Part shown: positions 1 through 21,451 of the stretch, one piece after another | Numbering within the stretch: position 1 is the stretch's first letter | How the letters are laid out: every line of letters begins with the position of its first letter | Assembly (NCBI GenBank): GCA_023435855.1 | Contig: JAEZLG010000094.1 | Location: forward strand, 1 to 36,232 | DNA: 36,232 nucleotides | Origin: Bacillota bacterium | GTDB taxonomy: Bacteria; Bacillota; Clostridia; Christensenellales; CAG-138 | Reading direction: 5' to 3' | Notes under the pieces: model-generated | The model's input: the letters and a program-made list of their open reading frames with translations, nothing else | The model's database searches: none | What the model was told of the DNA's origin: nothing | Translations under genes and position numbers: made by a program

Positions 1-1398
1 ACAAGGCGTACACTGTACGATCTTGAGCGTGCCAAGGAGCGTCTGCAAATCCTGGAAGGCCTTCGTATAGCGCTTGACAACATCGACGAGGTCATAGAGC
101 TTATCAAAACCTCCCCGAATGCCGCCGTCGCCAAAGAACGCCTCAACGCGCGCTTTGCATTGAGCGATAAGCAATCGCAGGCCATCCTCGATATGCGCTT
201 GCAGCGCTTGACAGGCCTCGAGCGCGACAAGATTGAAGAGGAATATAACGAGCTTTTGAAAACCGTGGCATATTATGAGAGCATACTCGCAGACGAGAAG
301 ATACTTTTGGGCATTATCCGCGATGAGGTATTGGAAATCCGCCGTAAGTTTGCGGACGAGCGCCGCACGAGCATTGAGCTTGCGAGCGACGATATAGACC
401 TTGATGACGTGATACAGCCCGAGGACATGGTGATAACTCTTACGCAGTTTGGCTATATAAAGCGCATGGAGATGGACAACTACCGCGCGCAGCGGCGCGG
501 CGGGCGCGGTATCATGGCACAGACTACGCGTGAGGAAGATTTCGTTCGCGATATATTCATCGCCAACACGCATGACCAGATCTTGTTCTTCACGAATATG
601 GGCAGGGCATTTCGCATTAAGTGCTACTTAATTCCCGAAGCGGGGCGTACGGCAAAGGGCACGCCCATCGTGAACCTTCTCCAGCTTCGCGACGGCGAAA
701 AGGTGACCACGATGCTTCGCGTCACAAAAGAGGTAGAGGCAAAATACCTCGTGCTTGCGACGCGCGAGGGACTCATTAAAAAGACTTGCGTGAGCGAGTT
801 TGAAAACATCCGCAAGGGCGGCTTAATCGCGCAAAACCTCAATGAAGGCGACGAGATGATCGGCGTGCTTCTGACCGAAGGAGACGATGAGATACTCGTA
901 GGCACGCGTCAGGGTAAGTGTATTCGCTTCAGCGAAGACGATATGCGTCCCATGGGCCGCACGGCGGCCGGCGTAAGGAGCATTGCGCTTGACGACGGCG
1001 ACAGCGTTGTAGATGTTGAGAGGGTGCAAAAAGGCGCACATGTTCTTTGCGTAACGGAGCGAGGCCTTGGCAAACGCACGCCGGAAGAAGAATATCCCCT
1101 GCAGGGCAGGTACGGTAAAGGTGTTATCACCATTAAAGTTACGGAACGCACGGGAGAGCTCATCTGCCTCAAAATGACCGACGGCGATGAGGATATGATG
1201 ATTATTCGCGACGACGGCACTGCCATCCGCATGAACGTGAACGATGTGAGCATATTCGGGCGCAACACCCAGGGCGTAAAGCTTATGCGCGTAGACGAAG
1301 GCACCCGCGTGGTGGGCGTAACGCTCGTACCGAGTGCAGAGGAAGAGGAAGAAGAAGAAACGTCCGAGGGAAATACACCGATAGGTATAGAGGAATAA
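1..1398 (+). CDS. gyrA: DNA gyrase subunit A, C-terminal part (5' end lies outside the window)
   Basis: Frame 1 is open from nt 1 (TRRTLYDLERAKERLQILEGL...SDKQSQAILDMRLQRLTGLE). It continues through GyrA C-terminal beta-pinwheel-type repeats to an acidic EEEEEEE tail, with TAA at 1396-1398. The ORF-track Met at 160 is internal. Confidence 0.95.
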   Translation, partial: TRRTLYDLERAKERLQILEGLRIALDNIDEVIELIKTSPNAAVAKERLNARFALSDKQSQAILDMRLQRLTGLERDKIEEEYNELLKTVAYYESILADEKILLGIIRDEVLEIRRKFADERRTSIELASDDIDLDDVIQPEDMVITLTQFGYIKRMEMDNYRAQRRGGRGIMAQTTREEDFVRDIFIANTHDQILFFTNMGRAFRIKCYLIPEAGRTAKGTPIVNLLQLRDGEKVTTMLRVTKEVEAKYLVLATREGLIKKTCVSEFENIRKGGLIAQNLNEGDEMIGVLLTEGDDEILVGTRQGKCIRFSEDDMRPMGRTAAGVRSIALDDGDSVVDVERVQKGAHVLCVTERGLGKRTPEEEYPLQGRYGKGVITIKVTERTGELICLKMTDGDEDMMIIRDDGTAIRMNVNDVSIFGRNTQGVKLMRVDEGTRVVGVTLVPSAEEEEEEETSEGNTPIGIEE

Positions 1399-1401
1399 AA
1401 T

Positions 1402-1426
1402 GTAGGGGCGGATACTATCCGCCCGC
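1402..1426. repeat. REP-like GC-rich palindromic unit GTAGGGGCGGATACTATCCGCCCGC
   Basis: Stem GGGCGGA/TCCGCCC lies directly after the gyrA stop, with no U-tract. A near-identical 25-mer occurs at 5105-5129 and differs only at the loop apex (C vs G). A related unit lies at 5159-5183. Confidence 0.6.
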
Positions 1427-1494
1427 AATACAGCCGAACATCCCCTATAGTCCCCTGCTTCTTTTCTTTCACGAAAAGATGACTGCGAGGAAAA

Positions 1495-2898
1495 ATGCCG
1501 ACCATTCCCATTTCAAAACCCTTAAAGCGATTAGCAGCCCTCTTTTTGCAGGAGGGCTTTTCGCTCTATGCGGTGGGCGGCATGGTACGAAACCCGCTTT
1601 TAGGCTTTCCTGTGAGCGATACGGATATCGCAAGCGCTATGGAGCCCGAGTGCCTTATGGAGCTTTGTGAACGCCACGGCATTCGTCAGATACCCAAAGG
1701 ACTTTCCTACGGTACGCTGGAGCTTCATGTCGATGGTGAAAGCTATGAGCACACCACATTCCGCGCTGATACCTACGGCACGGGAGGCGCTCACAGGCCG
1801 GAAGCGGTTGCGTTTTCAAAGACGCCTGAGGAGGATGCATTCCGCCGCGATTTTACGGTAAATGCACTCTACTATGATATTTCTGCCGAAAAACTGATAG
1901 ACCCTACGGGGGGGATAAGCGACCTTCATGACCGTGTGATACGTGCTACGAGCAAGGACCCGGCTGTCATTTTACGCGACGATGGGCTTCGTATTTTGCG
2001 CATGTTGCGTTTTATGGGTGAGCTTGGGTTTCACATTGAGGAAGACACACTCCGTGCAGCCAAAGAGAATGTAGAAGGCTTAAAGGATATCTCCCCCGAG
2101 CGCGTGCGTGACGAGCTTACTAAAATACTACTTTGCGATGCACGTTATGCCGTGTGGCATTACGACAGTGATACGAATTCTGCAGGGGACGGAAGCCCTG
2201 TCTTAAAGGCACTGCAAACGATGGAAGAAATAGGCGCATTAAAAGCGGTATTCCCTGAGTTGAGCATGATGCGCGGTGTGCAGCAAAAAACCTCCCACCA
2301 TCGCTTCGACGTACTCGACCACAGCTTTCACGCCTGTGCGTGCGTTGTGCCGGAACTATCCTTGCGTTTAAGTGCGCTTTTGCATGACACGGGTAAGCCC
2401 GAAAGCGTAAGGCTAAACGGCAATATGCATGGGCATGAGGTCAGAAGCGAATTAATTTCCCGGGAAATTCTGACACGATTGCGTTACCCAACAGCGTTGG
2501 TTGACAAAGTGTGCATTCTTGTGAAAAACCATATGTACGATCTCAACGGCGATGCGCGAGAGTTTAAGCTCCGGCTCCGTTTTACCTCTATGGGTAAAGA
2601 GAATGCAAAAAAACTTGTGCACTTGCGTGAGGCGGATGTACATGGCTCGGGTGTACTTTCAGGTCCGGTCAAAACCGCGGAAAAATGGAAAAAGATCCTT
2701 GACAGAATGGAAAAAGAAAATGTGCCATGGAGCTTAGATGAGCTTGCCTGCACAGGTACGGACATTATGACATGGCTTAACATAGGCCCGTCGCCTCGTG
2801 TGGGAGAGGTGAAACAACGTCTTTATGAGCACTGCGTTCGCTACCCCAAGGATAATAACAAAAACATACTTCAAAAAATAGTTGGAGGAATGAACTGA
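1495..2898 (+). CDS. cca: CCA-adding tRNA nucleotidyltransferase (poly(A) polymerase family head plus HD domain)
   Basis: 467 aa. N-terminus has YAVGGMVRN...DTDIA (GG/DxD nucleotidyltransferase motif) and RADTYGTGGAHRPE...RRDFTVNALY. C-terminal HD region has HHRFDVLDHS...LLHDTGK. Confidence 0.9.
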   Translation: MPTIPISKPLKRLAALFLQEGFSLYAVGGMVRNPLLGFPVSDTDIASAMEPECLMELCERHGIRQIPKGLSYGTLELHVDGESYEHTTFRADTYGTGGAHRPEAVAFSKTPEEDAFRRDFTVNALYYDISAEKLIDPTGGISDLHDRVIRATSKDPAVILRDDGLRILRMLRFMGELGFHIEEDTLRAAKENVEGLKDISPERVRDELTKILLCDARYAVWHYDSDTNSAGDGSPVLKALQTMEEIGALKAVFPELSMMRGVQQKTSHHRFDVLDHSFHACACVVPELSLRLSALLHDTGKPESVRLNGNMHGHEVRSELISREILTRLRYPTALVDKVCILVKNHMYDLNGDAREFKLRLRFTSMGKENAKKLVHLREADVHGSGVLSGPVKTAEKWKKILDRMEKENVPWSLDELACTGTDIMTWLNIGPSPRVGEVKQRLYEHCVRYPKDNNKNILQKIVGGMN

Positions 2899-2899
2899 C

Positions 2900-3553
2900 A
2901 TGAAGCGACCCATCATCGGCATAAGCCCGTCGTTTGAGGAAGACAAGTATTATAAGCTTTACAAAAACTATTGCTCGCTCATCAACGAAGCAGGCGGCGA
3001 GGCAATTATCCTTCCCTTTCAATTCGAAACGTTTTCCGCTTTGGACGGCGTGATCTTATCGGGCGGCGGCGATGTGGACGGACAGTTGGGCGGTTATGAG
3101 AACACAGAAATTGTTGATCGTGTAGCGCATGAGAGAGACGCGTTTGAAGTTAGGCTTTTTGAAGCGGCGTTTCGGCGTAGCGCACCCATTTTGGGTATAT
3201 GCCGCGGGCACCAGATCATAAACGTTGCGTTAAAAGGCACGCTGCATCGCGATATTCCTGAGGCAGGCTTTACTGAGAATCATCAGCTTCACGGCGAAAG
3301 CGAGCACCCCATTCGCACCCTGGCGCCTTCGCGCGTGAGAGAGATGTTTGGCGAAACGGCAATGGTTTGGAGCACGCATCACCAGGCGGTAAAAGACCTC
3401 GGAAAAGGGCTTACGGCAACTGCTTGGTCACCGGAGGGCATCATAGAAGCTATAGAGCATGAAAACGGACGTGTAATCGGGCTTCAAACGCATCCGGAGC
3501 GCATGGGCTTTCTGCCACCGTTTTTATGGCTCGTGGAGAACTGCGGCAAATAA
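2900..3553 (+). CDS. Gamma-glutamyl-gamma-aminobutyrate hydrolase family protein (class-I glutamine amidotransferase-like, peptidase C26)
   Basis: 217 aa. Nucleophile elbow GICRGHQ and distal QTHPE His/Glu. GGAGGA SD sits inside the end of cca, and the ATG is 1 nt after the cca stop. Confidence 0.85.
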   Translation: MKRPIIGISPSFEEDKYYKLYKNYCSLINEAGGEAIILPFQFETFSALDGVILSGGGDVDGQLGGYENTEIVDRVAHERDAFEVRLFEAAFRRSAPILGICRGHQIINVALKGTLHRDIPEAGFTENHQLHGESEHPIRTLAPSRVREMFGETAMVWSTHHQAVKDLGKGLTATAWSPEGIIEAIEHENGRVIGLQTHPERMGFLPPFLWLVENCGK

Positions 3554-3627
3554 ACGCGAAGCATGTAAAACGGTGTAAACATTTTATGACAAAACACTAA
3601 AGCGGTGCGCAAACGGCCACTGTTTGC

Positions 3628-3656
3628 TTGCAAATGCGCCAAAAAGCATGTAGAAT
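3628..3656 (+). promoter_or_regulatory. Sigma-A-type promoter for the hydrolase gene
   Basis: TTGCAA (3628-3633), 17-nt spacer, TAGAAT (3651-3656). Followed by a roughly 110-nt leader containing the GGGCAT..ATGCCC and AAGGCGT..ACGCCTT hairpins. Confidence 0.5.
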
Positions 3657-3768: not shown

Positions 3769-4785
3769 GTGAGCTTATCCCTTGAGGTTAAAAAATTTAT
3801 CAACTCCGAACATATCGGGGACTATGTAGAATTCACCCTGCCCGCACCGGACTATCCGGAGCGCGGCAGCCGTAAAAAGCCCGTTAAGGAGCAAAAGCCC
3901 GAAGCTGCAGAAGCAATCGCTGCGGAAGCGACCGAAGGTGATGTGAAGGCGGAGGAACCAACTCCTGTAACGGTGGAAGTCCCAACCGGCGAAAAGGTAC
4001 GCATGCACTATCTTGAGGCGGGCGTAGGTGAACCTCTTATTTTGGTTCATACAATCGCACAGTCCATCTACACCTGGCGAAGTGCATTTAACCGTTTGAG
4101 TGAATACTACCGCGTGATTGCTGTTGACCTATTAGGCCATGGCTATTCAGACAGGCCGGAGACATTCGGCTATACCATTGAGGAACATGCAGAGAGCCTT
4201 CGGCTGTTTATGGACGCTATAGGCATTAAATCCGCGCACTTCATGGGTTTCTCTATGGGCTGTGCATACGTATCGCAGCTTGCGGTTTCAGCACCCGAGC
4301 GCATGGGCAGGATTATCCTCCTTGCCCCCGGTGGTATATCGCCTGAAATGCCGCTTCCCATCCGCATGATTGACAGCACGGTATTTGGCCCAATCGCCTC
4401 CATGCTCTTTGGGCTGCGCACTGTGGAGAATGTGCTGTCCGAATGCTTCTTTGACCTCACCTGCCTCACTAGTGACGTTATAACAGAATACTACCGCACC
4501 ATTTCCGATCCTTCCGGCAGGCGCGCTGTTCGCCACTCACTCCATTATTTTGACGATACCGTTATCAACACGCGCTTGCGTGAGATGGAACAGGATATTT
4601 TGATTTTACAGGGCGGCGAGGATAAATGGCGCTCCCAGACGCAGGCTGAGTTCTACCACGCAGCCTATAAAAACGCCTGCTTTGCGGTGGTGCGAAACGC
4701 CGGCCACCTTTTACAAGAGGAAAAGCCCGATAAGCTCTTAGCAGCTACGCTCGAATTCATACCTGTGGCGATGCCGGGGGAATAA
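3769..4785 (+). CDS. Alpha/beta-fold hydrolase with an ~80-aa low-complexity Lys/Glu/Ala/Pro-rich N-terminal extension
   Basis: 338 aa. GTG start 6 nt after GGGAGG. Has HYLEAGVGEPLILVHT, a GFSMG nucleophile motif (G-x-S-x-G) and a C-terminal NAGHLLQEEKP. Confidence 0.85.
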   Translation: MSLSLEVKKFINSEHIGDYVEFTLPAPDYPERGSRKKPVKEQKPEAAEAIAAEATEGDVKAEEPTPVTVEVPTGEKVRMHYLEAGVGEPLILVHTIAQSIYTWRSAFNRLSEYYRVIAVDLLGHGYSDRPETFGYTIEEHAESLRLFMDAIGIKSAHFMGFSMGCAYVSQLAVSAPERMGRIILLAPGGISPEMPLPIRMIDSTVFGPIASMLFGLRTVENVLSECFFDLTCLTSDVITEYYRTISDPSGRRAVRHSLHYFDDTVINTRLREMEQDILILQGGEDKWRSQTQAEFYHAAYKNACFAVVRNAGHLLQEEKPDKLLAATLEFIPVAMPGE

Positions 4786-5069
4786 AGCGCTTGCGCGCTT
4801 TCGCGTGCATGTCTTGTGAGCCATGCACGCGAGTAAGGGTCTTGCACATCCGCCTCTCGCGCTTTGGCGCTCCCACCCTTCGGGTACTACTGATGTCGCC
4901 TATGGCGACAATTAAGGTTGCGGGCGGCGGATGTGAAAGGAACGAAAGGCTACGCCTTTCATCCGTTTCGGCGCACGCAAGGCCGTAGGCCTTGGCCCAA
5001 AGGGCTCCGGCTATGCCGGACGCACATGTCGCCGAAGCCGGAAGGAAGTCAAGGGGTTCGCCCCTTGAC
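4786..5069 (+). repeat. Structured intergenic repeat element, copy A (candidate ncRNA or REP/MITE-like element)
   Basis: Homologous to 21085-21320. The 95-nt core 4842-4936 is 89/95 identical to 21143-21237. A 10-bp closing helix (4845-4854/4926-4935) encloses three mini-hairpins. Flanking hairpins are conserved through compensatory changes. See findings. Confidence 0.7.
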
Positions 5070-5104
5070 AATCCCGGAGTTATCGGGGTTATGCCCAGAA
5101 CCCC

Positions 5105-5129
5105 GTAGGGGCGGATAGTATCCGCCCGC
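5105..5129. repeat. REP-like palindromic unit GTAGGGGCGGATAGTATCCGCCCGC (second copy)
   Basis: 24/25 identical to 1402-1426. The single difference is at the loop apex. Confidence 0.6.
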
Positions 5130-5158
5130 GTGTTCATGCAAAGGATTGAATTTCTCAT

Positions 5159-5189
5159 GTAGGGCGGGATGATTTCATCCCGCTGTTTT
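5159..5189 (+). terminator. Intrinsic terminator / third REP-related hairpin
   Basis: GTAGGGCGGGATGAtttCATCCCGC: an 8-9-bp GC stem (5164-5183) followed by TGTTTT and an A-run. Probable 3' end of the hydrolase / element-A transcript. Confidence 0.6.
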
Positions 5190-5212
5190 AAAAAAAATAT
5201 TTACTTTACCTA

Positions 5213-5267: not shown

Positions 5268-6005
5268 ATGATGACCGTGCACGAGGTGGCAAAGCTCGCG
5301 GGAATCAGCGTACGCACGCTGCATTATTACGATGAAATCGGGCTACTCCGTCCGGACGGAGCGAGCTACGCGGGATACCGGCTTTATGGGGATAGTTCCA
5401 TAGAGCGGCTTCAGCAGATTTTGTTTTTCCGCGAGCTTGGGTTTCCCCTAGGGGAAATCGCGGCCATACTTAATGCGCCAAACTATGATAAATCACAGGC
5501 GCTTTTAAACCACAGGCGGCTTCTTACGCTCAAACGCGAGCGGCTAAACGGGCTTATCGCCCTTGTGGATCAAGCGCTCAAAGGAGAGGATTCTATGAGC
5601 ATAAAGGAATTTGATATGAAAAAGATTGATGAAGCACGCGAACAGTATGCCGCAGAGGCAAAGTCGCGATGGGGTGAAACGAACGCGTATAAGGAAAGTG
5701 AAAAACGCACCGCCAAATACACCAAAGAGGATTGGGCGCGAATGAGCACTAAATCGGAGGCGATTTTCAAGGGCTTTGCCGAATTGCGAAATTTGGACCC
5801 CGCATCCGATGCAGTGCAGTCGCTTGTGCGGCAATGGAAGGCGTTCATAAGCGAGAGCTATTATGACTGCACGGACGAGATACTTTCAGGTTTGGGTGAA
5901 ATGTATGTGGATGATGCGCGGTTCACAAAAAATATCGACGCTTATGGAGAGGGTACCGCAATGTTTATGCGTGACGCCATACGGGCGAATGTGAAAGGAA
6001 AGTAA
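5268..6005 (+). CDS. MerR-family transcriptional regulator with a TipAS-like effector domain
   Basis: 245 aa. N-terminal HTH MTVHEVAKLAGISVRTLHYYDEIGLL, a coiled-coil linker, and a C-terminal region (WGETNAYKESEKRTAKYTKEDW...) typical of TipAS/Mta-type regulators. Confidence 0.9.
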   Translation: MMTVHEVAKLAGISVRTLHYYDEIGLLRPDGASYAGYRLYGDSSIERLQQILFFRELGFPLGEIAAILNAPNYDKSQALLNHRRLLTLKRERLNGLIALVDQALKGEDSMSIKEFDMKKIDEAREQYAAEAKSRWGETNAYKESEKRTAKYTKEDWARMSTKSEAIFKGFAELRNLDPASDAVQSLVRQWKAFISESYYDCTDEILSGLGEMYVDDARFTKNIDAYGEGTAMFMRDAIRANVKGK

Positions 6006-6761: not shown

Positions 6762-7784
6762 TTAATTTTCTGTTCTCCAACTCCTGTACAGCCCCGCTAT
6801 AACCGCCTCAAGCGGTTCTGCGGCAAGTTCTACATCGGATACATCGGGTATTTCCGAAAGCTCGCGCAGCACTTCCTGCACGGGTGTTTTTTGGGGCTCG
6901 AAGGCATAGGTATGCATCGAGTCTATGCTTTCCACAAGTAAAGCGGAAATTAGTTTCGGTGGTACGGGCGAGCTTGTTTGGATGCGTACGAGCCTGTTAA
7001 AACTGTTATTTTGTCTTAGCGCTTCAAACGTACCGTCAAACGCAATGCGCCCGTTTGATAGGAGCACTACGCGATGTGCCATTTCGGCAAGATCGTCCAT
7101 GTCATGCGAGGTTACAAGTACCGTTGTGCCGTAGAGAGAGCCGAGTGTGCGTAAAAACTCGATCATCTGCCGTTTGGCAAGTACGTCAAGCCCCAGCGTT
7201 GGTTCATCGAGCAATATGAGCTTGGGGTTATGAAGGAGCATCAGTGCAAGCTCGCAGCGCATTCTTTGCCCGAGGCTAAGTTCACGTGCAAAGGTATGCA
7301 GCAAATCGCCTATGTCGAGCCGCTCCGTTACGTCATGGAGCATGCGCGTATAGGTGGTATCGGGAATATTCCACACCTCGCGCTTCCATTCAAAGCTCGA
7401 TAAAATGGGATGGTCCCACCAAAGCTCCATGCGGTTGCCGAAGAGTATACCGACATTTTGCATGAGCTCAACGCGGTTCTTCATGGGTGAAAGACCCATA
7501 ACGTTTACCTCCCCAATGTCCGGCACGAGCATGCCGCAAAGGAGTTTTATGGTGGTGCTTTTTCCGGCACCGTTGGGGCCTGCATAGGCCACAAATTCGC
7601 CCTTATTTACTTTAAGGTTCACGCTGTCAAGTGCGCACACCTCTTTTACCTCGGGATGCAGGAGGTTTTTGAGCGCGTTTATAACCGTGCCTGCACGCTG
7701 CTGTTGGTAAAAAGTCTTTTTAACATTTGTAAGTTCAACCGCGGTGTCCCATGCTGCGGTAGCGCGAACTGCCGACTTTGGCAT
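6762..7784 (-). CDS. ABC transporter ATP-binding protein (ABC-2-type system with two dedicated permeases)
   Basis: 340 aa. Walker A GPNGAGKST, signature LSLGQRMR, Walker B LILLDEPTLGLD, H-loop TSHD, plus a ~90-aa C-terminal extension. The only in-frame start overlaps the upstream permease by 50 nt. Confidence 0.9.
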   Translation of the reverse strand: MPKSAVRATAAWDTAVELTNVKKTFYQQQRAGTVINALKNLLHPEVKEVCALDSVNLKVNKGEFVAYAGPNGAGKSTTIKLLCGMLVPDIGEVNVMGLSPMKNRVELMQNVGILFGNRMELWWDHPILSSFEWKREVWNIPDTTYTRMLHDVTERLDIGDLLHTFARELSLGQRMRCELALMLLHNPKLILLDEPTLGLDVLAKRQMIEFLRTLGSLYGTTVLVTSHDMDDLAEMAHRVVLLSNGRIAFDGTFEALRQNNSFNRLVRIQTSSPVPPKLISALLVESIDSMHTYAFEPQKTPVQEVLRELSEIPDVSDVELAAEPLEAVIAGLYRSWRTEN

Positions 7785-8583
7785 AATACTTCAGTCCTTT
7801 CGAGAAAAAAATGTAGGCTAGGCCGCATAGTGTCACGGCCACGAGTGCAGGAAGGAGGAGCAGTATTCCGCCCTCCGTTTTTTTAAGGAGTATGCAGGTT
7901 GGCAGCCAAGCCAATGCCCCTGCCGGCAGCACCGTCAAAAGCGCATAGCGCACGGCGGAGGGCAGCCCGAAAAGCGGGTAGATGGATAGCGAAAACATCG
8001 CATCAAGAACCACGGAGGAGAGCTCCTCCCCCGCCTTTGGCCTGTAAAATGCTGCGCTGCCCGCGAGGAAGGAATAGCCAAGCACCATGCTTACACCGCA
8101 TATAAGGTAAAAAATAAGTAGGAGCAGCCAGCCGAAGCTTGCGGCGATTTTAAGCCGTATGGCAGCAAAAACCACCACAGCGACGCCGCATAGGAAAGTG
8201 CTGCTGCCGGAAACCGGCAAAAACCCTTCCGTTAAAAGCTGAGCGGGAAGCGATAAAGGCTGTATCAACATATGATCCAGCTGCCCTCGGCCAACGCGGC
8301 GGGAGATGTAGCCCGCGTTGCCGCCCCCAAAGAAAAGTTGGAAAAGCCCTGATACGACGGTTGAATAACCGAGCATCAAAAGCACCTCATCGCTTGAGAA
8401 CGTACCGACGCCCGCAAAGCGTTCGGATAATAAAAACACCGAGGAAACGCTTGCGATTGCGGAAACAAGATCACTCAAAATGGCCAAAACGCAGTTTCTC
8501 GTATCGCGCAACAGCCACGCAGCATCCATACGTGCGTAAAGTTTTAAAAGCCGCAAAGCGCGGTGCAGTTTTTTAGCCGCCAT
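7735..8583 (-). CDS. ABC-2-family transporter permease
   Basis: 282 aa, about 6 hydrophobic segments. Overlaps its neighbours on both sides (operon). Confidence 0.8.
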   Translation of the reverse strand: MAAKKLHRALRLLKLYARMDAAWLLRDTRNCVLAILSDLVSAIASVSSVFLLSERFAGVGTFSSDEVLLMLGYSTVVSGLFQLFFGGGNAGYISRRVGRGQLDHMLIQPLSLPAQLLTEGFLPVSGSSTFLCGVAVVVFAAIRLKIAASFGWLLLLIFYLICGVSMVLGYSFLAGSAAFYRPKAGEELSSVVLDAMFSLSIYPLFGLPSAVRYALLTVLPAGALAWLPTCILLKKTEGGILLLLPALVAVTLCGLAYIFFSKGLKYYAKVGSSRYRSMGHRG

Positions 8584-10861: not shown

Positions 10862-10911
10862 AGGACTTCGGAAGCACTCACAACCTAGTTAAAAAACCAT
10901 GGTATTGTAAA

Positions 10912-10933
10912 GGGCGCACCTATAGGTACGCCC
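10912..10933. terminator. Hairpin between convergent genes
   Basis: GGGCGcACCTatAGGTaCGCCC, flanked by A/T-rich sequence. Confidence 0.45.
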
Positions 10934-10940
10934 TATATAG

Positions 10941-11438
10941 TTACATAGCCATTATTGTTCCGCAGGCTATTTTTTTGCCGGAATTACCCGAGGGCTGCGA
11001 GGTAAAATCGTCCACGCCCGCGTGGATAATCACCGACCTGCCTATCACTTCGCTGACTTGAAACCGGTCCGTGATGAACGTAAGGAATGCGCTGCCGCTG
11101 TTTTCAAACAAGGGCGGCATATCGCCCGCATGGTAGGGATGGGGGCATTTTTTGGGGTTGTAATGACCGCCCGCACCGGCGTACCGGTCCTGCCTGTCGC
11201 CTAAACAGCCGCCTCCCTCGTGTATATGAAACGCGAAAACGCCGTTCATGCAGGGGCCACTCAAATGCGGCAGACCGCTCACTTCAGCAGCGATTATCAC
11301 GTCGCCACGCGTTTGAAAAAAATAGACCGTGCCGCGCACGGCGGAATAAGGCGCGCTTCCGCGTATGGCTGCGTAAGCCGTCGGGCGCTCAAGAAGCACA
11401 CGCGCGACGCGCCGCGTAATATCCTGCGCCTCAAACAT
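10941..11438 (-). CDS. Cu/Zn superoxide dismutase-family protein, no signal peptide
   Basis: Start moved to ATG 11438 (MFEAQDI...), 6 nt after AAGGGGGA. Has FHIHEGGGC...GGHYNP...HAGDMP...SVIIHAGVDD, matching the SodC copper/zinc ligand regions. Confidence 0.8.
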   Translation of the reverse strand: MFEAQDITRRVARVLLERPTAYAAIRGSAPYSAVRGTVYFFQTRGDVIIAAEVSGLPHLSGPCMNGVFAFHIHEGGGCLGDRQDRYAGAGGHYNPKKCPHPYHAGDMPPLFENSGSAFLTFITDRFQVSEVIGRSVIIHAGVDDFTSQPSGNSGKKIACGTIMAM

Positions 11439-12634: not shown

Positions 12635-13549
12635 ATGGCAAAGCCGGTATTGGCGATCTTGGCGGCTGGCATGGGGAGCCGCTACGGCGGTCTCAAGCAG
12701 ATTGACCCCATGGATGCGCATGGTAACATCATCATTGATTTTGATATTTACGACGCGAAAAAAGCGGGCTTTGAGGATCTCGTTTTCATTATCAAGAAGG
12801 AAATTGAGGCGGATTTTAAAAATAATATAGGCTTGCGCATGGAAAAACGCATGAACGTATCCTATGCCTATCAGGAGCTCGATAAGCTGCCTGCAGGCTT
12901 TTCCGTGCCCGAGGGCCGCGTGAAGCCTTGGGGCACTACCCATGCTGTGCTTTGCGCACGCGAAGTGATCGGCAATCGGCCCTTTGCCATCATCAACGCG
13001 GACGATTACTACGGTCCCCGCGCATTTCAAGAGCTGTACAATTTTCTTTCCCGCGGAACCGATATAAATGCGCACGCCATGGTAGGCTATAACATCGAAA
13101 ACACGCTTACGGAATATGGGTCCGTGGCACGCGGTATTTGCATGGTAAATGAAAAAGCCTATCTTACCGATATCGTTGAGCGCACCAAGGTGGTAAAAAC
13201 CGAAAATTGCGCCGCTTTCACCTTGGATGGTGAGCATTATACGGATATTCCCAAGGGAACCGTGGTTTCTATGAACTGCTGGGGTTTCATGGAGGGAATC
13301 TTTGATCGGCTGCAGGCAAACTTTAACGGCAATTTTGAAGCCGGTGTACGGTCCAATCCGCTCAAGTACGAAGATCTTTTACCCAATGCCGTGCGGTATG
13401 CCATCGGCGACGGCAAAACAAGTGTGAAGGTGCTTCCGACCCCCGATCGCTGGTTTGGCGTCACTTACAAAGAGGACAAAGAGAGCACGATTGAAGCATT
13501 GAAAGCATTAAAAGCAAAGGGATTGTACAGCGAGAAGCTTTGGGAGTAA
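12635..13549 (+). CDS. Sugar-phosphate nucleotidyltransferase-family protein
   Basis: 304 aa. N-terminal LAAGMGSRYGGLKQ (G-x-G-t-R-x-x-x-x-x-K pyrophosphorylase loop) and INADDYYG. GGAGG SD. Confidence 0.75.
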   Translation: MAKPVLAILAAGMGSRYGGLKQIDPMDAHGNIIIDFDIYDAKKAGFEDLVFIIKKEIEADFKNNIGLRMEKRMNVSYAYQELDKLPAGFSVPEGRVKPWGTTHAVLCAREVIGNRPFAIINADDYYGPRAFQELYNFLSRGTDINAHAMVGYNIENTLTEYGSVARGICMVNEKAYLTDIVERTKVVKTENCAAFTLDGEHYTDIPKGTVVSMNCWGFMEGIFDRLQANFNGNFEAGVRSNPLKYEDLLPNAVRYAIGDGKTSVKVLPTPDRWFGVTYKEDKESTIEALKALKAKGLYSEKLWE

Positions 13550-13602
13550 TTTTAAAAAGCTGCCTACTCCCTTTGTTTTAACAATCCTAGGCTTAACGAT
13601 CG

Positions 13603-19341: not shown

Positions 19342-21084
19342 ATGCACGAGGCTGTGCTTAGGCTCAAAAGCCAACTCATCCCCTATCTTAAACGCCGCGC
19401 GTTCTCCTTTGAGCTTGCAGAGCTTGTGCTGTCGGCACTTTTGGGTTCGTCGGCTTATGGCTTAAGCGGGCTTTCCCCGCTTAGCATAGCCTGTGTCGCC
19501 GCGGTATTTTTATGCGGTGTTAACCCGTATTACGCGCTCACGGGTGCAGTCGCGGGAGCGCTTATCGGAGGAAACTATGCCTCCGCAGCCGCATGCGCGC
19601 TTTTTGCTGCTGCAAGTATAGGTATTGGGGCGTGGCGCGGGAGTCTTAAAAACCGAGAAAAGCTGGCGCTTCTTCTCGCTGCGCAACTTGTTCTTATGCC
19701 CGTGTTTTATATGCGCTCGCTTGAAAGCGCCATGATTGGGCTTTCAAACGCCATTCTTGCAATACTCGCTGCCGCAGCGCTCAAACACGCGCGCGCGGCA
19801 TTTGAGGCGACAATTAAAAAGCGGATGCTGAGTAACGCCGAGCAGGCTTCGCTTGTAGCGCTCGGGGCATTTATCGTGTTTTCGTTGCGTGATTTTTCGC
19901 TGCTTCAAGTAGGCATCGGTGCGGTGTTTGCTACGCTTTTCTCTCTCGTTTCGGCGGGTATGAAAGGGCCTGTCGCAGTTGCCGCGTCGGTGGTGTTCGG
20001 CTTAAGCTGTATGCTTGCGGGCGGGGCAAGCATGTTGTTTATGGGAACGCTTGCGGCCTGTACGTTATGCGCTTCCTTTTTAATGCGATCCGGACGATGG
20101 GGGGTTGCGGCGGGCTTTTTCGTGCCTGCAGCGCTTTTTTCGTATTTTGTCGGCGGTATAAATTCCCTTTCCGTATGGGAGGCGGGGTTTGGCTGCGGCT
20201 TTTTTGCGTTGTTACCGCAAAAAGCGTTTCGTTCCATGGCCTCCGCTGCGCTGCCTGCTGAGGATGAACGCTTTAAACGGGCACTTATCACCACGCGTGC
20301 GCGGTTGGACGATCTTTCAAGCGTCGTCGCTCGTCTAAGTACGCTTTTTGACCCGGATGATGAGGCGCAAGGCTTTCTTTATAGGCAAATGAACGGTATA
20401 TGCGGTGCGCTCCGCTCGCTTGCGGAAAACTCCTATCCCGATAAGCGGCCATACAAGCGCTATGAGATACGCGTCGGTGCGGCAGCCTGCCCTAAGGCGG
20501 GCAATGTTGAAACCGGCGACAGCATGGGCATGCGCGAGGCGGGCGGGAGCCTTCTTATGATGCTAAGCGACGGCATGGGCACGGGTGAGGCAGCGCATAA
20601 GGAAAGTGCCGCGGCAGTGGCTCTTTTGGGGGATTTATTAAGCGTAGGCTATGAGCTTGAAAACGCGCTTGAATGCGTGAACATGCTTTTGCTGCTGCGC
20701 CAAAAAAACGATATGTATGCTACGCTCGACGCGGCATGCATCGACCTTAAAACAGGTTCTGCTCAATTTGTAAAATTCGGTGCGCCGCCAAGCTATATAT
20801 TGCGCGACGGGAAGGTAATCACCGTGTATGCCGAGGCAATACCCATGGGCGTTATGAAGGAGGCGCACGCAGCTATACAAAGTGCCGCGCTCAAACATGG
20901 CGATGCACTTGTTTTGATGACTGACGGAGCGTTTGATGCTCTCGGTACAGATCTTTTTGCGTCGCTTTTGGAGCACGTGTATGCGGCTAACACCGCAGAT
21001 GATGCTGCAAATGCACTGTTAAAATGCGCGCGAGAGAAAAGCGGTGCGGATGATATGACGATATTGGTTGCACGGATCGTGTAA
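19342..21084 (+). CDS. spoIIE: Stage II sporulation protein E-type PP2C phosphatase (multi-TM N-terminal domain)
   Basis: 580 aa. About 9-10 TM segments are followed by a PP2C-like domain (GDSMGM...LMMLSDGMGTGEAAHKES...LVLMTDG...DDMTILVARI). Confidence 0.85.
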   Translation: MHEAVLRLKSQLIPYLKRRAFSFELAELVLSALLGSSAYGLSGLSPLSIACVAAVFLCGVNPYYALTGAVAGALIGGNYASAAACALFAAASIGIGAWRGSLKNREKLALLLAAQLVLMPVFYMRSLESAMIGLSNAILAILAAAALKHARAAFEATIKKRMLSNAEQASLVALGAFIVFSLRDFSLLQVGIGAVFATLFSLVSAGMKGPVAVAASVVFGLSCMLAGGASMLFMGTLAACTLCASFLMRSGRWGVAAGFFVPAALFSYFVGGINSLSVWEAGFGCGFFALLPQKAFRSMASAALPAEDERFKRALITTRARLDDLSSVVARLSTLFDPDDEAQGFLYRQMNGICGALRSLAENSYPDKRPYKRYEIRVGAAACPKAGNVETGDSMGMREAGGSLLMMLSDGMGTGEAAHKESAAAVALLGDLLSVGYELENALECVNMLLLLRQKNDMYATLDAACIDLKTGSAQFVKFGAPPSYILRDGKVITVYAEAIPMGVMKEAHAAIQSAALKHGDALVLMTDGAFDALGTDLFASLLEHVYAANTADDAANALLKCAREKSGADDMTILVARIV

Positions 21085-21320
21085 GCGCTTTGCGCTTCGC
21101 TGGCATGGCTTGCGAGCCATGCCAGCGAGGCCCTTCGGGGGGTTGCACATCCGCCTGTCGCGCTTCAGCGCTCCCACCCTACGGGTACTACTGATGTCGC
21201 CTTCGGCGACAATTAAGGTTGCGGGCGGCGGATGTGATAGGTACGAAATCCTTCGGATTTCATCCGTTTTGACGCGCGTGTCGTCAAAGCCGGAAGGAAA
21301 TTAAGAGGGGCGCCTCTTAA
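21085..21320 (+). repeat. Structured intergenic repeat element, copy B (candidate ncRNA or REP/MITE-like element)
   Basis: Starts 1 nt after the spoIIE stop, in the same orientation and with the same architecture as 4786-5069. Core 21143-21237. Hairpins at 21095-21130, 21245-21261, 21271-21285 and 21301-21320. Invariant AAGCCGGAAGGAA at 21287-21299. Confidence 0.7.
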
Positions 21321-21451
21321 TGATCTCCCAAGAGTTTGTTGCCACAGTGGATGCCCCGCTTCGGTTGGTCGTACTGGCCGGAGGCTTACTTATGCATTCG
21401 TCAGCTAGAAATTGTTTATTGAAATTTGGTCACTTTGTCACAATTCAGTTC

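What the first reader, a model, noticed from the sequence alone, without database searches (positions are those of the whole stretch)
4786..5069. Two-copy multi-hairpin element whose variation is confined to loops or is compensatory (copy A, directly after the hydrolase stop codon)
The 480-nt non-coding gap after the stop at 4785 opens with an element that recurs in the same orientation directly after the spoIIE stop (21085-21320). A 95-nt core (4842-4936 vs 21143-21237) is 89/95 identical. It can fold as a 10-bp closing helix (CACATCCGCC 4845-4854 with GGCGGATGTG 4926-4935) around three short GC hairpins: GCGC-n4-GCGC at 4859-4870, ACCC-n3-GGGT at 4875-4885 and GTCGCC-n3-GGCGAC at 4895-4909. 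Five of the six substitutions fall in the loops of those hairpins, and the sixth falls in a junction. The flanking helices differ in sequence but keep their pairing. The 5' hairpin is CGCGTGCATG/CATGCACGCG (4802-4831) in A and CGCTGGCATGG/CCATGCCAGCG in B. A second is GAAAGGC-tac-GCCTTTC (4944-4960) in A and GAAATCC-ttc-GGATTTC in B. The 3' hairpin is GTCAAGGGG-ttcg-CCCCTTGAC (5048-5069) in A and TTAAGAGG-ggcg-CCTCTTAA in B. An invariant, apparently unpaired AAGCCGGAAGGAA (5035-5047) precedes the last hairpin. Copy A also has a 66-nt expansion (4969-5034; CGGCG...CGCCG closing three more mini-hairpins) where copy B has only a 15-nt hairpin. That behaviour resembles a variable arm of a structured RNA. 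As inference only: GGCGGAT could alternatively pair with the conserved downstream ATCCGTT (4961-4967), which would allow two mutually exclusive folds. I cannot assign the element to any RNA family I know. Alternatives are a REP/MITE-like DNA element or a 3'UTR-derived sRNA.
Basis: seen in the sequence. Interest (0 to 1): 0.7.

Follow-up and report, generated by a model that had tools for sequence, protein, structure and literature searches.

The report
Modular hairpin repeat after stop codons
The two look-alike stretches are real copies of a previously undescribed, highly structured non-coding repeat. It sits just after the stop codons of unrelated genes in a group of uncultured Clostridia and is built from separable hairpin modules, so it is a new family of a familiar kind of bacterial intergenic repeat rather than a single dedicated RNA gene.

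Summary
Copy A (4786-5075) and copy B (21085-21329) have the same hairpin layout, and their 95-nt core differs at six positions, five of them in loops. No Rfam family matches, and nothing matched in the plasmid, phage or viral collections.

The element is not a two-copy RNA gene. I found 13 copies with the core across the window and two relatives' genome bins, plus coreless variants in other related bins. Eleven of 12 run in the same direction as the upstream gene, and eight start 0-4 nt after its stop codon. Helices are 96% paired, and 14 of 32 pairs show compensatory changes.

Related genomes show it is modular:
- The element after the hydrolase gene is at the same position in two relatives, but both lack a discrete 47-nt unit (window 4874-4920).
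- That unit occurs alone, in tandem arrays of up to 10, in Syntrophomonadaceae.
- Mini-hairpin arms, the 5' hairpin, a nested insert and neighbouring GTAG-tagged palindromes (REPs) also come and go.
- At two other sites the window keeps only relics.

My best reading is a new mosaic repeat family resembling REP/BIME and BOX elements, co-transcribed in 3' untranslated regions. Whether it works as RNA or as single-stranded DNA is unresolved.

The parts
4786..5075 (+). Copy A, whole element. It runs from the first base after the hydrolase stop codon to the AATCCC tail.
   Evidence: The covariance model scores the core 4841-4970 at 151.6 bits.
4784..4801 (+). Copy A small 5' hairpin P(-1), AAAGCGC-TTGC-GCGCTTT. 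It includes the last two bases of the TAA stop.
   Evidence: Read. The same GCGCTTYGCGC hairpin follows the stop at copy B and in the orthologues L071, L077 and L078.
4801..4832 (+). Copy A hairpin P0, TCGCGTGCATG / CATGCACGCGA.
   Evidence: P0 differs in sequence between copies but keeps the TCGC...GCGA closure. It is collapsed in the orthologue L077.
4845..4935 (+). Copy A P1 domain. The closing helix CACATCCGCC/GGCGGATGTG encloses P2 (GCGC hairpin, 4859-4870) and the 47-nt unit.
   Evidence: In helix 1, seven of 10 pairs have changes on both sides.
4874..4920 (+). Copy A 47-nt unit, CACCCTTCGGG-TACTACTGAT-GTCGCCTATGGCGAC-AATTAAGGTTG. It holds the ACCC/GGGT and GTCGCC/GGCGAC hairpins.
   Evidence: Removing exactly these 47 nt makes copy A collinear with the orthologous element in L077. 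The same unit forms tandem arrays with a 47-nt period in Syntrophomonadaceae.
4944..4968 (+). Copy A hairpin P5 (GAAAGGC-TAC-GCCTTTC) plus the conserved ATCCGTTT.
   Evidence: Helix 5 covaries and TTTCATCCGTTT is present in nearly all copies.
4969..5034 (+). Copy A variable arm. The closing helix CGGCG/CGCCG encloses three mini-hairpins.
   Evidence: The number of mini-hairpins ranges from 0 to about 6 between copies. The arm also occurs alone elsewhere (L023, L045, L071).
5035..5075 (+). Copy A 3' end: AAGCCGGAAGGAA, hairpin GTCAAGGGG-TTCG-CCCCTTGAC and the tail AATCCC.
   Evidence: The CCCTTRAYAATCCC end is found on 11 of the family members listed.
5076..5192 (+). Downstream composite attached to copy A. 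It comprises a GGGG hairpin, a GTAG-tagged REP (5105-5129) and a second REP (5159-5183) followed by a T run, which is the likely terminator of the hydrolase transcript.
   Evidence: The same order of parts follows the orthologous element in L077 and the copy in L035.
21085..21329 (+). Copy B, whole element. It runs from the first base after the SpoIIE stop to the GATCTCCC tail.
   Evidence: The covariance model scores the core 21142-21271 at 150.7 bits.
21175..21221 (+). Copy B 47-nt unit.
21146..21236 (+). Copy B P1 domain (CACATCCGCC 21146-21155 with GGCGGATGTG 21227-21236).
10899..10946 (-). Relic of a family member. Only a hairpin plus a CCCTTTACAATACC tail remains, directly after the stop of the minus-strand Sod_Cu gene.
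   Evidence: Relatives carry a full element at this orthologous site: L010 2383-2806, L077 18530-18945, and a variant in L071/L078.
13553..13590 (+). Probable relic (AAAAAGCTGCC...CCCTTTG...ACAATCC) after the stop of ORF 12635-13549.
   Evidence: L010 5436-5806 has a full element at the orthologous site. The relic reading is my inference.

Best explanation
Copies A and B belong to an undescribed family of modular, palindrome-rich intergenic repeats in a lineage of uncultured Clostridia. The family is a mosaic element in the manner of REP/BIME and BOX.

**Layout.** A scaffold lies between the stop codon of an upstream gene and that gene's terminator, in the gene's orientation, so it is most likely transcribed as part of the 3' untranslated region. 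The scaffold consists of:
- a small hairpin at the stop codon;
- hairpin P0;
- hairpin P1;
- hairpin P5 followed by AUCCGUUU;
- an arm closed by its own helix;
- AAGCCGGAA;
- a 3' hairpin followed by AAUCCC.

**Modularity.** Smaller units are added to and lost from the scaffold. The most striking is a discrete 47-nt two-hairpin unit in the loop of P1. This unit is an independent repeat elsewhere, forming tandem arrays in Syntrophomonadaceae. Mini-hairpins, a nested insert of about 100 nt and GTAG-tagged REPs behave the same way.

**Status of each step.**
- Shown: the hairpins are kept by selection or by homogenisation between their two arms.
- Inferred: copies spread and are reshaped through single-stranded hairpin intermediates, by a transposase supplied in trans or by recombination between copies.
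- Inferred: the host-level effect is that of a stable structure starting at the stop codon. It would affect ribosome release, 3' end stability and read-through of the upstream mRNA, as reported for REPs.
For: **A family, not a gene pair**
- 13 copies with the core were found in the window and in two related genome bins, OH_SFB_220 and OH_HBB_203.
- Further variants lie in GCA_035562395.1 and GCA_021372675.1.
- Flanking genes are unrelated housekeeping genes.

**Position**
- 11 of 12 copies run in the direction of the upstream gene, and none sits between divergent genes.
- Eight of 12 start 0-4 nt after the stop codon.
- No promoter-like site lies upstream of either copy. A REP hairpin plus T run follows copy A, and the same arrangement follows its orthologue.

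**Structure**
- 96% of cells are paired, and 14 of 32 pairs have changes on both sides.
- None of 500 shuffles reaches these values, and slid controls pair at about 40%.
- Copies are only 68-91% identical to one another, so the stems are actively maintained.

**Modularity**
- There is an exact 47-nt difference between the window and the orthologous L077 element.
- Variants without the 47-nt unit exist.
- The 47-nt unit occurs 135 times in the loci held, in arrays of 1-10.
- The mini-hairpin arm occurs alone.
- A nested insert sits in the 3' hairpin loop in both orientations.
- Relics remain in the window where relatives have full copies.

**Agreement with published REP behaviour**
- REPs lie mostly between same-direction and convergent ORFs, within 20 bp of the upstream 3' end, and may supply the stop codon (PMC3733652).
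Against: - There are no terminal inverted repeats, no target duplication and no GTAG tag on the element itself.
- No transposase was found in any locus held, so the means of spread is unknown.
- No near-identical copies were seen; the highest pairwise identity is 91%. There is therefore no sign of recent transposition.
- Elements persist at orthologous sites between genomes whose flanking proteins are 79-86% identical.
- Substitutions avoid stems and junctions.
- The last three points fit a selected function as well as, or better than, selfish spread.
- No expression data could be consulted.
Confidence: 0.55

Rival explanations
1. It is a genuine functional structured RNA family acting on the plus strand. 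It could be a cis-acting 3' untranslated-region element or a small RNA processed from that region. The conserved unpaired stretches (ACUACUGAU, AAUUAAGGUUGC, AUCCGUUU, AAGCCGGAA) would bind a protein or RNA partner. The multi-copy distribution would then be secondary.
For: - Covariation is strong.
- Changes between A and B are confined to loops.
- 11 of 12 copies run with the upstream gene, including two oppositely oriented copies 2.7 kb apart in L010. This rules out a bias set by replication direction.
- Elements persist at orthologous sites across 79-86% protein identity, with a compensated P1 helix: CACATCCGCC/GGCGGATGTG versus CACGGTTTTG/CACAAAACCGTG.
- Several G-U pairs occur on the plus strand in P0 and P4.
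Against: - Stems are almost purely Watson-Crick (645 Watson-Crick, 16 G:T, 21 A:C), with no clear excess of plus-strand wobbles.
- Whole domains are dispensable, including the most conserved 47 nt.
- The 47-nt unit and the mini-hairpin arm occur in both orientations relative to genes elsewhere.
- Neighbouring genes share no function.
- There is no promoter of its own.
Confidence: 0.22
2. It is a purely selfish, non-autonomous element moved as single-stranded DNA by a tyrosine HUH transposase (IS200/IS605 TnpA or a REP-associated RAYT). The 5' and 3' hairpins would be the transposase recognition ends, and TAA would be the preferred 5' target. That preference would place surviving copies just after stop codons in the gene's orientation.
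For: - It has subterminal hairpins at both ends, no inverted terminal repeats and no target duplication.
- TAA lies immediately 5' of the element in seven of the nine copies that abut a stop codon.
- The palindromes are perfect Watson-Crick.
- GTAG-tagged REPs, the substrates of RAYTs, sit next to five copies.
- RAYT group 1 is reported in Clostridia (PMC5581495).
Against: - No transposase gene was seen in any held locus.
- Two stop-adjacent copies follow TGA and TAG, not TAA.
- There are no near-identical copies.
- Orientation follows genes rather than one replication strand in L010.
- The 'empty' sites found in the window are relics, not clean empty targets.
Confidence: 0.18
3. It is a chance similarity or a protein-coding feature, namely the minus-strand ORF 4757-5158 of 133 aa.
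For: An ORF of 133 aa overlaps copy A.
Against: - The ORF matches no Pfam family.
- No ORF of 80 aa or more overlaps copy B on the minus strand.
- Indels between copies and orthologues are about 50 and 47 nt.
- Covariance-model scores are about 150 bits.
Confidence: 0.01

Closest known systems
REP sequences and BIMEs (bacterial interspersed mosaic elements) of Enterobacteria, Pseudomonas and Stenotrophomonas
   Same: - Both are dispersed and extragenic, and rich in palindromes.
- Both lie between same-direction or convergent genes, close to the upstream stop codon (PMC3733652).
- Both are assembled into mosaics with a variable number of modules.
- Both persist for long periods in a lineage (bioRxiv 10.1101/2021.07.10.451892, abstract seen).
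- True GTAG-tagged REPs flank several copies here.
   Different: - The element is 240-500 nt with seven or more distinct hairpins in a fixed order and a fixed orientation, not a 20-40 bp palindrome or an alternating REP dimer.
- It carries no GTAG or CGTC tag.
- It shows no sequence similarity to known REPs.
BOX elements of Streptococcus pneumoniae (boxA-boxB(n)-boxC)
   Same: - Both are modular non-coding repeats in which an internal unit of about 45 nt is repeated in tandem a variable number of times.
- Both are predicted to fold into stable structures when transcribed.
- The source is PMC3049150 (title and abstract seen). The module details are from my own knowledge.
   Different: - There is no sequence relationship.
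- In the Clostridia copies here the 47-nt unit is single and sits inside a hairpin loop. Tandem amplification is seen only in Syntrophomonadaceae.
- The strict start at stop codons is not a BOX feature, to my knowledge.
Non-autonomous IS200/IS605 derivatives (palindrome-associated transposable elements)
   Same: Both have subterminal hairpins at both ends, no inverted terminal repeats, no target duplication and a possible fixed 5' target (TAA).
   Different: - No TnpA or TnpB partner was identified.
- The internal architecture is far more elaborate.
- No near-identical copies were found.
bcr repeats of the Bacillus cereus group; ERIC and Correia elements
   Same: These are structured intergenic repeats of about 100-400 nt in bacteria. 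They are co-transcribed with neighbouring genes, and their effects on mRNA depend on orientation.
   Different: Those elements have terminal inverted repeats and target duplications, which are absent here.

Membership tests
Any Rfam 15 RNA family | Covariance-model score at or above the family's gathering threshold | tested here: not met
   - There were 0 hits in the whole window.
- Only noise (E of 0.4 or higher, far below threshold) was found at both copies on both strands.
- Nothing overlapped family members in eight related loci.
MITE (miniature inverted-repeat transposable element) | Terminal inverted repeats | tested here: not met
   The 5' end (A)GCGCTT(T)GCGC and the 3' end CCCCTTGACAATCCC are not complementary.
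MITE (miniature inverted-repeat transposable element) | Target-site duplication flanking the element | tested here: not met
   The flanks are GAATAA|...|GGAGTT for copy A and GTGTAA|...|AAGAGT for copy B, with no direct repeat.
MITE (miniature inverted-repeat transposable element) | Multi-copy, non-coding, and present or absent between related genomes | tested here: met
   13 or more copies were found. Five sites differ among related genomes.
REP (RAYT-associated) | A 20-40 bp imperfect palindrome with a GTAG or CGTC tag at one end | tested here: not met
   The element is 243-290 nt here and has no such tag. The neighbouring hairpins at 1402-1426, 5105-5129 and 5159-5183 do meet the definition.
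REP (RAYT-associated) | Lies between same-direction or convergent ORFs, close to the upstream stop codon | tested here: met
   compared with PMC3733652.
REP (RAYT-associated) | A RAYT gene in the same genome | not testable with these tools
BIME/BOX-type mosaic repeat | Built from separable modules whose number and presence vary between copies | tested here: met
   The 47-nt unit, mini-hairpins, P0, the 3' hairpin and the nested insert all vary.
BIME/BOX-type mosaic repeat | Sequence homology to the E. coli or pneumococcal modules | not tested
   No direct comparison was run. Any relationship claimed here is by analogy only.
IS200/IS605-type non-autonomous element | Subterminal hairpins, no inverted repeats or duplications, and a conserved 5' target tetra- or pentanucleotide | tested here: inconclusive
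   The hairpins and the lack of repeats fit. TAA precedes seven of the nine stop-adjacent copies, but TGA and TAG also occur, and three copies are not at a stop.
Intrinsic terminator | A GC-rich hairpin directly followed by a U run | tested here: not met
   - P0 and the 3' hairpin of copies A and B lack a T run.
- Some relatives' P0 hairpins (L045, L071) do look like terminators.
- The terminator of the copy A transcript is the downstream REP plus T run at 5159-5192.
Small self-cleaving ribozymes (hammerhead, twister, pistol, hatchet) | A match to the family's core and fold | tested here: not met
   No Rfam hit at E up to 10 over either copy. CUGAUG is followed by a stem and then AAUUAAGG, not the GAAA of a hammerhead (read from the sequence).
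Small RNA derived from a 3' untranslated region | A discrete stable transcript from the 3' end of an mRNA | not testable with these tools
   No expression data are available.

The most novel reading that the evidence does not exclude
The 47-nt unit ACCCUNCGGGU-ACUACUGAU-hairpin-AAUUAAGGUUGC is a new kind of small autonomous nucleic-acid module. It could be a recognition or cleavage site for an unknown single-strand recombinase, or a small catalytic or protein-binding RNA. It would insert precisely into or beside hairpin loops and amplify in tandem. It has moved between two distant Bacillota lineages (Syntrophomonadaceae and this Clostridia group) while keeping about 21 unpaired bases nearly invariant.
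Probability: 0.2. Interest if true: 0.7.

Novelty: new variant of a known kind. Interest (0 to 1): 0.5.

Why it matters
- **New family in a little-studied group.** Structured intergenic repeats are best known from Proteobacteria and streptococci. This family extends the idea to uncultured, spore-forming Clostridia and gives concrete models for annotating them.
- **A natural test of stop-codon structure.** The family starts exactly at stop codons, keeps a fixed orientation and fixed hairpin order, and has compensated helices. That makes it a natural test bed for how a stable structure at the stop codon affects termination, ribosome release and mRNA decay in Bacillota.
- **A small, well-bounded unit for experiments.** The 47-nt unit appears as a precise insertion or deletion in one lineage and as tandem arrays in another. 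It is tractable for asking how tiny non-coding units move.
- **Practical consequence.** Repeats of this kind break metagenome assemblies and can be mistaken for RNA genes.

Tried and rejected
- **Rfam.** Gathering and permissive thresholds over both copies and related loci gave nothing.
- **Sequence collections.**
  - BLAST against plasmids and phages found nothing.
  - The viral-contig pattern scan found nothing.
  - A metagenome scan with a pattern specific to the full-length form gave 0 hits.
  - The general pattern returned only the Syntrophomonadaceae-type 47-nt units.
- **Literature.** Searching for the conserved strings found no relevant paper, and a search for Syntrophomonas repeats gave nothing useful.
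- **A recurrent neighbouring protein or transposase.** All-against-all ORF clustering plus Pfam found only housekeeping genes such as MreB, FlgG, aconitase and CoA-transferase.
- **Strand test from G:T versus A:C mismatches.**
  - The full-length copies gave 16 versus 21, with 14 of the A:C calls an artefact of over-extending P5.
  - In the 47-nt units the ACCC/GGGT hairpin leans slightly to the minus strand, 12 versus 5.
  - Both results are inconclusive.
- **A closing helix around the Syntrophomonadaceae arrays.** It is not a general feature: the mean best helix was 4.7 versus 4.6 in controls. Only a GAAATAC/GTATTTC subfamily has one.
Rejected for lack of covariation.
- **Replication-strand bias as the cause of orientation.** Rejected because L010 holds two oppositely oriented copies, each following its own gene.
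- **Clean empty sites.** The two best candidates in the window turned out to retain relics of the element's 3' end.

Full report
**1. The observation**

Copy A (4786-5075) and copy B (21085-21329) each begin at the first base after a TAA stop. Copy A follows an alpha/beta hydrolase ORF (3769-4785) and copy B follows a SpoIIE ORF (19342-21084).

The repeat finder reports a 141-nt block at 87% identity and a 55-nt block at 76%. The alignment shows six differences in the 95-nt core. Five are in the loops of the three small hairpins and one is in a junction. Loops are 10 of the 95 positions, so I estimate the chance of that distribution at about 7e-5.

The flanking hairpins differ in sequence but keep their pairing. 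Copy A has about 50 extra nt of mini-hairpins. Both strands of both copies fold much better than shuffles, with z between -6.2 and -8.3.

**2. Not a known RNA and not coding**

Rfam 15 gives no hit at gathering threshold in the window. Permissive searches of both copies return only noise. Family members in eight other loci also match nothing.

The 133-aa minus-strand ORF over copy A has no Pfam family and no counterpart at copy B. The indels seen are about 50 and 47 nt. No promoter-like site precedes either copy.

**3. Relatives**

A scan of one genome per species with TACTACTGAT-N(12-22)-AATTAAGGTTG returned 45 loci. A metagenome scan returned 24 more. They fall into two classes.

- *Full-length elements.* These have the same architecture as the window copies. 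They occur in two bins labelled 'Bacillota bacterium', OH_SFB_220 and OH_HBB_203.
- *A bare 47-nt unit.* This is CACCCTnCGGG-TACTACTGAT-hairpin-AATTAAGGTTG. It occurs singly or in head-to-tail arrays with a 47-nt period in Syntrophomonas zehnderi and other Syntrophomonadaceae. There are 135 units in the loci held, in arrays of up to 10.

A covariance model of the core domain finds 13 full-length copies at 85-152 bits.

**4. Structure**

I counted pairs on the 13 copies for five helices: P1 (the closing helix), P2, P3 (ACCC/GGGU), P4 and P5.

- 96% of cells are standard pairs, and 14 of 32 pairs show changes on both sides.
- None of 500 shuffles reaches these values, and sliding the partners drops pairing to about 40%.
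- P1 exists as CACATCCGCC/GGCGGATGTG, CACGCTTTACC/GGTAAAGCGTG and CACGGTTTGCC/GGCAAACCGTG.
- Whole copies are only 68-91% identical to each other, so the stems are being maintained.
- In the 47-nt units P4 also covaries (G-C/A-T, T-A/C-G).
- One large subfamily carries a conserved tandem T.C/C.T mismatch. On the other strand this reads as a tandem G.A/A.G.

**5. Where the copies sit**

Eleven of 12 full-length copies with a known upstream gene run in that gene's direction. None lies between divergent genes. Eight of 12 start 0-4 nt after the stop codon, and the first small hairpin often includes stop-codon bases.

Two copies 2.7 kb apart in L010 have opposite orientations, and each follows its own gene. 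The bias therefore tracks genes, not the replication strand.

Copy A is followed by a small G-rich hairpin, a GTAG-tagged REP (5105-5129) and a second REP with a T run (5159-5192). The orthologous locus in L077 has the same order. The element therefore lies between stop codon and terminator.

The bare 47-nt arrays in Syntrophomonadaceae are much less biased. Thirty run with both neighbouring genes and 18 run against both. They can sit in opposite orientations in the same intergenic region of different species.

**6. Comparison of orthologous sites**

The window is syntenic with a contig of OH_HBB_203 at 74-93% protein identity. It is also syntenic with contigs of GCA_035562395.1 (L077) and GCA_021372675.1 (L071/L078), which I reached through SpoIIE and hydrolase homologues.

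| Site | Window | OH_HBB_203 lineage | GCA_021372675.1 (L071, L078) |
|---|---|---|---|
| After the hydrolase | Full copy with the 47-nt unit | L077: orthologous element, no 47-nt unit | L078: orthologous element, no 47-nt unit |
| After the Sod_Cu gene | Relic only (10899-10946) | L010 and L077: full copies with a nested insert in the 3' hairpin loop | L071/L078: variant without the 47-nt unit |
| After the NTP-transferase gene | Probable relic | L010: full copy | L071: short intergenic gap, no model hit |
| After SpoIIE | Full copy | Not available | L071: only the small hairpin plus a terminator-like P0 |
| After the small ORF beyond pepF | Nothing | L045: a copy | L071: short intergenic gap, no model hit |

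- *L073 and L076.* Two further SpoIIE orthologue loci, at 75% and 73% identity, have no element after SpoIIE.
- *The 47-nt difference.* At the hydrolase site, deleting exactly window 4874-4920 makes copy A collinear with L077, where the loop reads ...CTCC|CGGGC....
- *Other differences in L077.* It also lacks the mini-hairpins and has a collapsed P0.
- *L078.* It has a different, fully compensated P1.
- *The mini-hairpin arm.* It also occurs alone, and in reverse orientation, elsewhere.

The family is therefore long-lived at given sites but is built from units that are gained, lost and nested.

**7. RNA or DNA?**

Orientation, position and persistence argue for a constraint linked to transcription. 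Against a classical plus-strand RNA, the stems are almost entirely Watson-Crick: 645 Watson-Crick pairs, 16 G:T and 21 A:C, with 14 of the A:C calls an artefact. In the 47-nt units the wobble pattern in P3 slightly favours the opposite strand. Both strands fold equally well. I regard the strand and the type of molecule as unresolved.

**8. Interpretation**

The best-supported reading is a new family of modular palindromic repeats of the REP/BIME/BOX kind, resident in 3' untranslated regions.

- *Shown:* multi-copy distribution, modularity, placement and maintained structure.
- *Inferred:* how it spreads, and its effect in cis on translation termination and mRNA 3' ends. Spread would be through single-stranded hairpin intermediates and a transposase in trans, or through recombination between copies.

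Published surveys describe the same placement for REPs, including REPs that supply the stop codon (PMC3733652). They also describe long vertical persistence of REPIN-RAYT systems (bioRxiv 10.1101/2021.07.10.451892, abstract seen) and report RAYT group 1 in Clostridia (PMC5581495).

**9. Membership and novelty**

The element fails the defining tests for a MITE, since it has no inverted terminal repeats and no target duplication. It also fails for a REP proper (wrong size, no GTAG tag), for an intrinsic terminator and for every Rfam family. It meets the descriptive criteria of a mosaic repeat. I therefore file it as a new variant of a known kind.

The least ordinary part is the 47-nt unit. It is a precisely bounded piece with about 21 nearly invariant unpaired bases, shared by two distant Bacillota lineages. 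It is single inside a hairpin loop in one lineage and tandemly amplified in the other.

**10. Limits**

- Only fragments of the relevant genome bins were available, so no true copy number or transposase census was possible.
- The search pattern required the 47-nt unit, so scaffold copies without it are under-sampled.
- Subfamily structure means the compensatory changes represent few independent events.
- No expression data were available.

Noticed in passing
window 1402-1426, 5105-5129, 5159-5183: There are three GTAG-tagged palindromes (GTAGGGGCGGATAsTATCCGCCCGC and GTAGGGCGGGATGATTTCATCCCGC). These are classic REP-type repeats, and they recur next to family members in L030, L035, L037, L045 and L077. 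The third is followed by a T run and probably serves as a terminator.
   Followed up: partly
L010 2397-2503, L077 18535-18640, L023 about 7075-7225, L028 about 7685-7790; a shorter form at L010 5733-5792: A further repeat of about 100 nt (…GCGAAGCCGAAGCGCCGCCTGTGGCGGAT…TATTGCGA…) is inserted in the loop of the element's 3' hairpin GTCAAGGGG/CCCCTTGAC. It occurs in both orientations, so a second element appears to target that hairpin loop.
   Followed up: partly
L071 11930-12050; L045 about 3600-3650; L023 about 5690-5760: The mini-hairpin arm (AAGGCC-nnn-GGCCTT, GGCTCCGGC-nnn-GCCGGAC) occurs on its own, sometimes reversed. In L071 it sits inside the 5' leader of the LOG-family gene. It appears to be part of a different repeat with its own ends (…CTTGCACTGACGC…CCCTCTAAAC).
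   Followed up: no
47-nt units of Syntrophomonadaceae, e.g. L012, L039, L051, L058: In 22-24 of 56 distinct units the second hairpin (GYTCCC-GTT-GGTCRC) keeps a tandem T.C/C.T mismatch. On the opposite strand this reads as a tandem G.A/A.G, a stable non-canonical motif. It hints that the other strand may be the relevant one there.
   Followed up: partly
L063 about 950-1070 and L014 about 4560-4720: In two Syntrophomonas-like contigs the 47-nt arrays lie directly after a SpoIIID-like gene (my identification from the translated sequence, not checked against Pfam) and upstream of mreB. In L063 the ORF appears to run into the first unit.
   Followed up: no
window 1-3553 compared with L077 and L078: In relatives the syntenic region just upstream holds recF, gyrB and gyrA. 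The window therefore probably lies close to the chromosomal replication origin. Its GC skew is mostly positive on the plus strand.
   Followed up: no
L053 950-1180 and 2761-2915: Rfam detects a group II intron (D1-D4 and the catalytic domain) in one Syntrophomonadaceae-type metagenome contig that also carries 47-nt units. No link between the two is evident.
   Followed up: no
L026 2424-2632: This family member lacks both strands of the P1 helix as well as P0, yet it still starts right after a stop codon (TAA|GCTGCTGCGCGCTCCTACCC…). Both halves of a helix appear to have been lost together.
   Followed up: no
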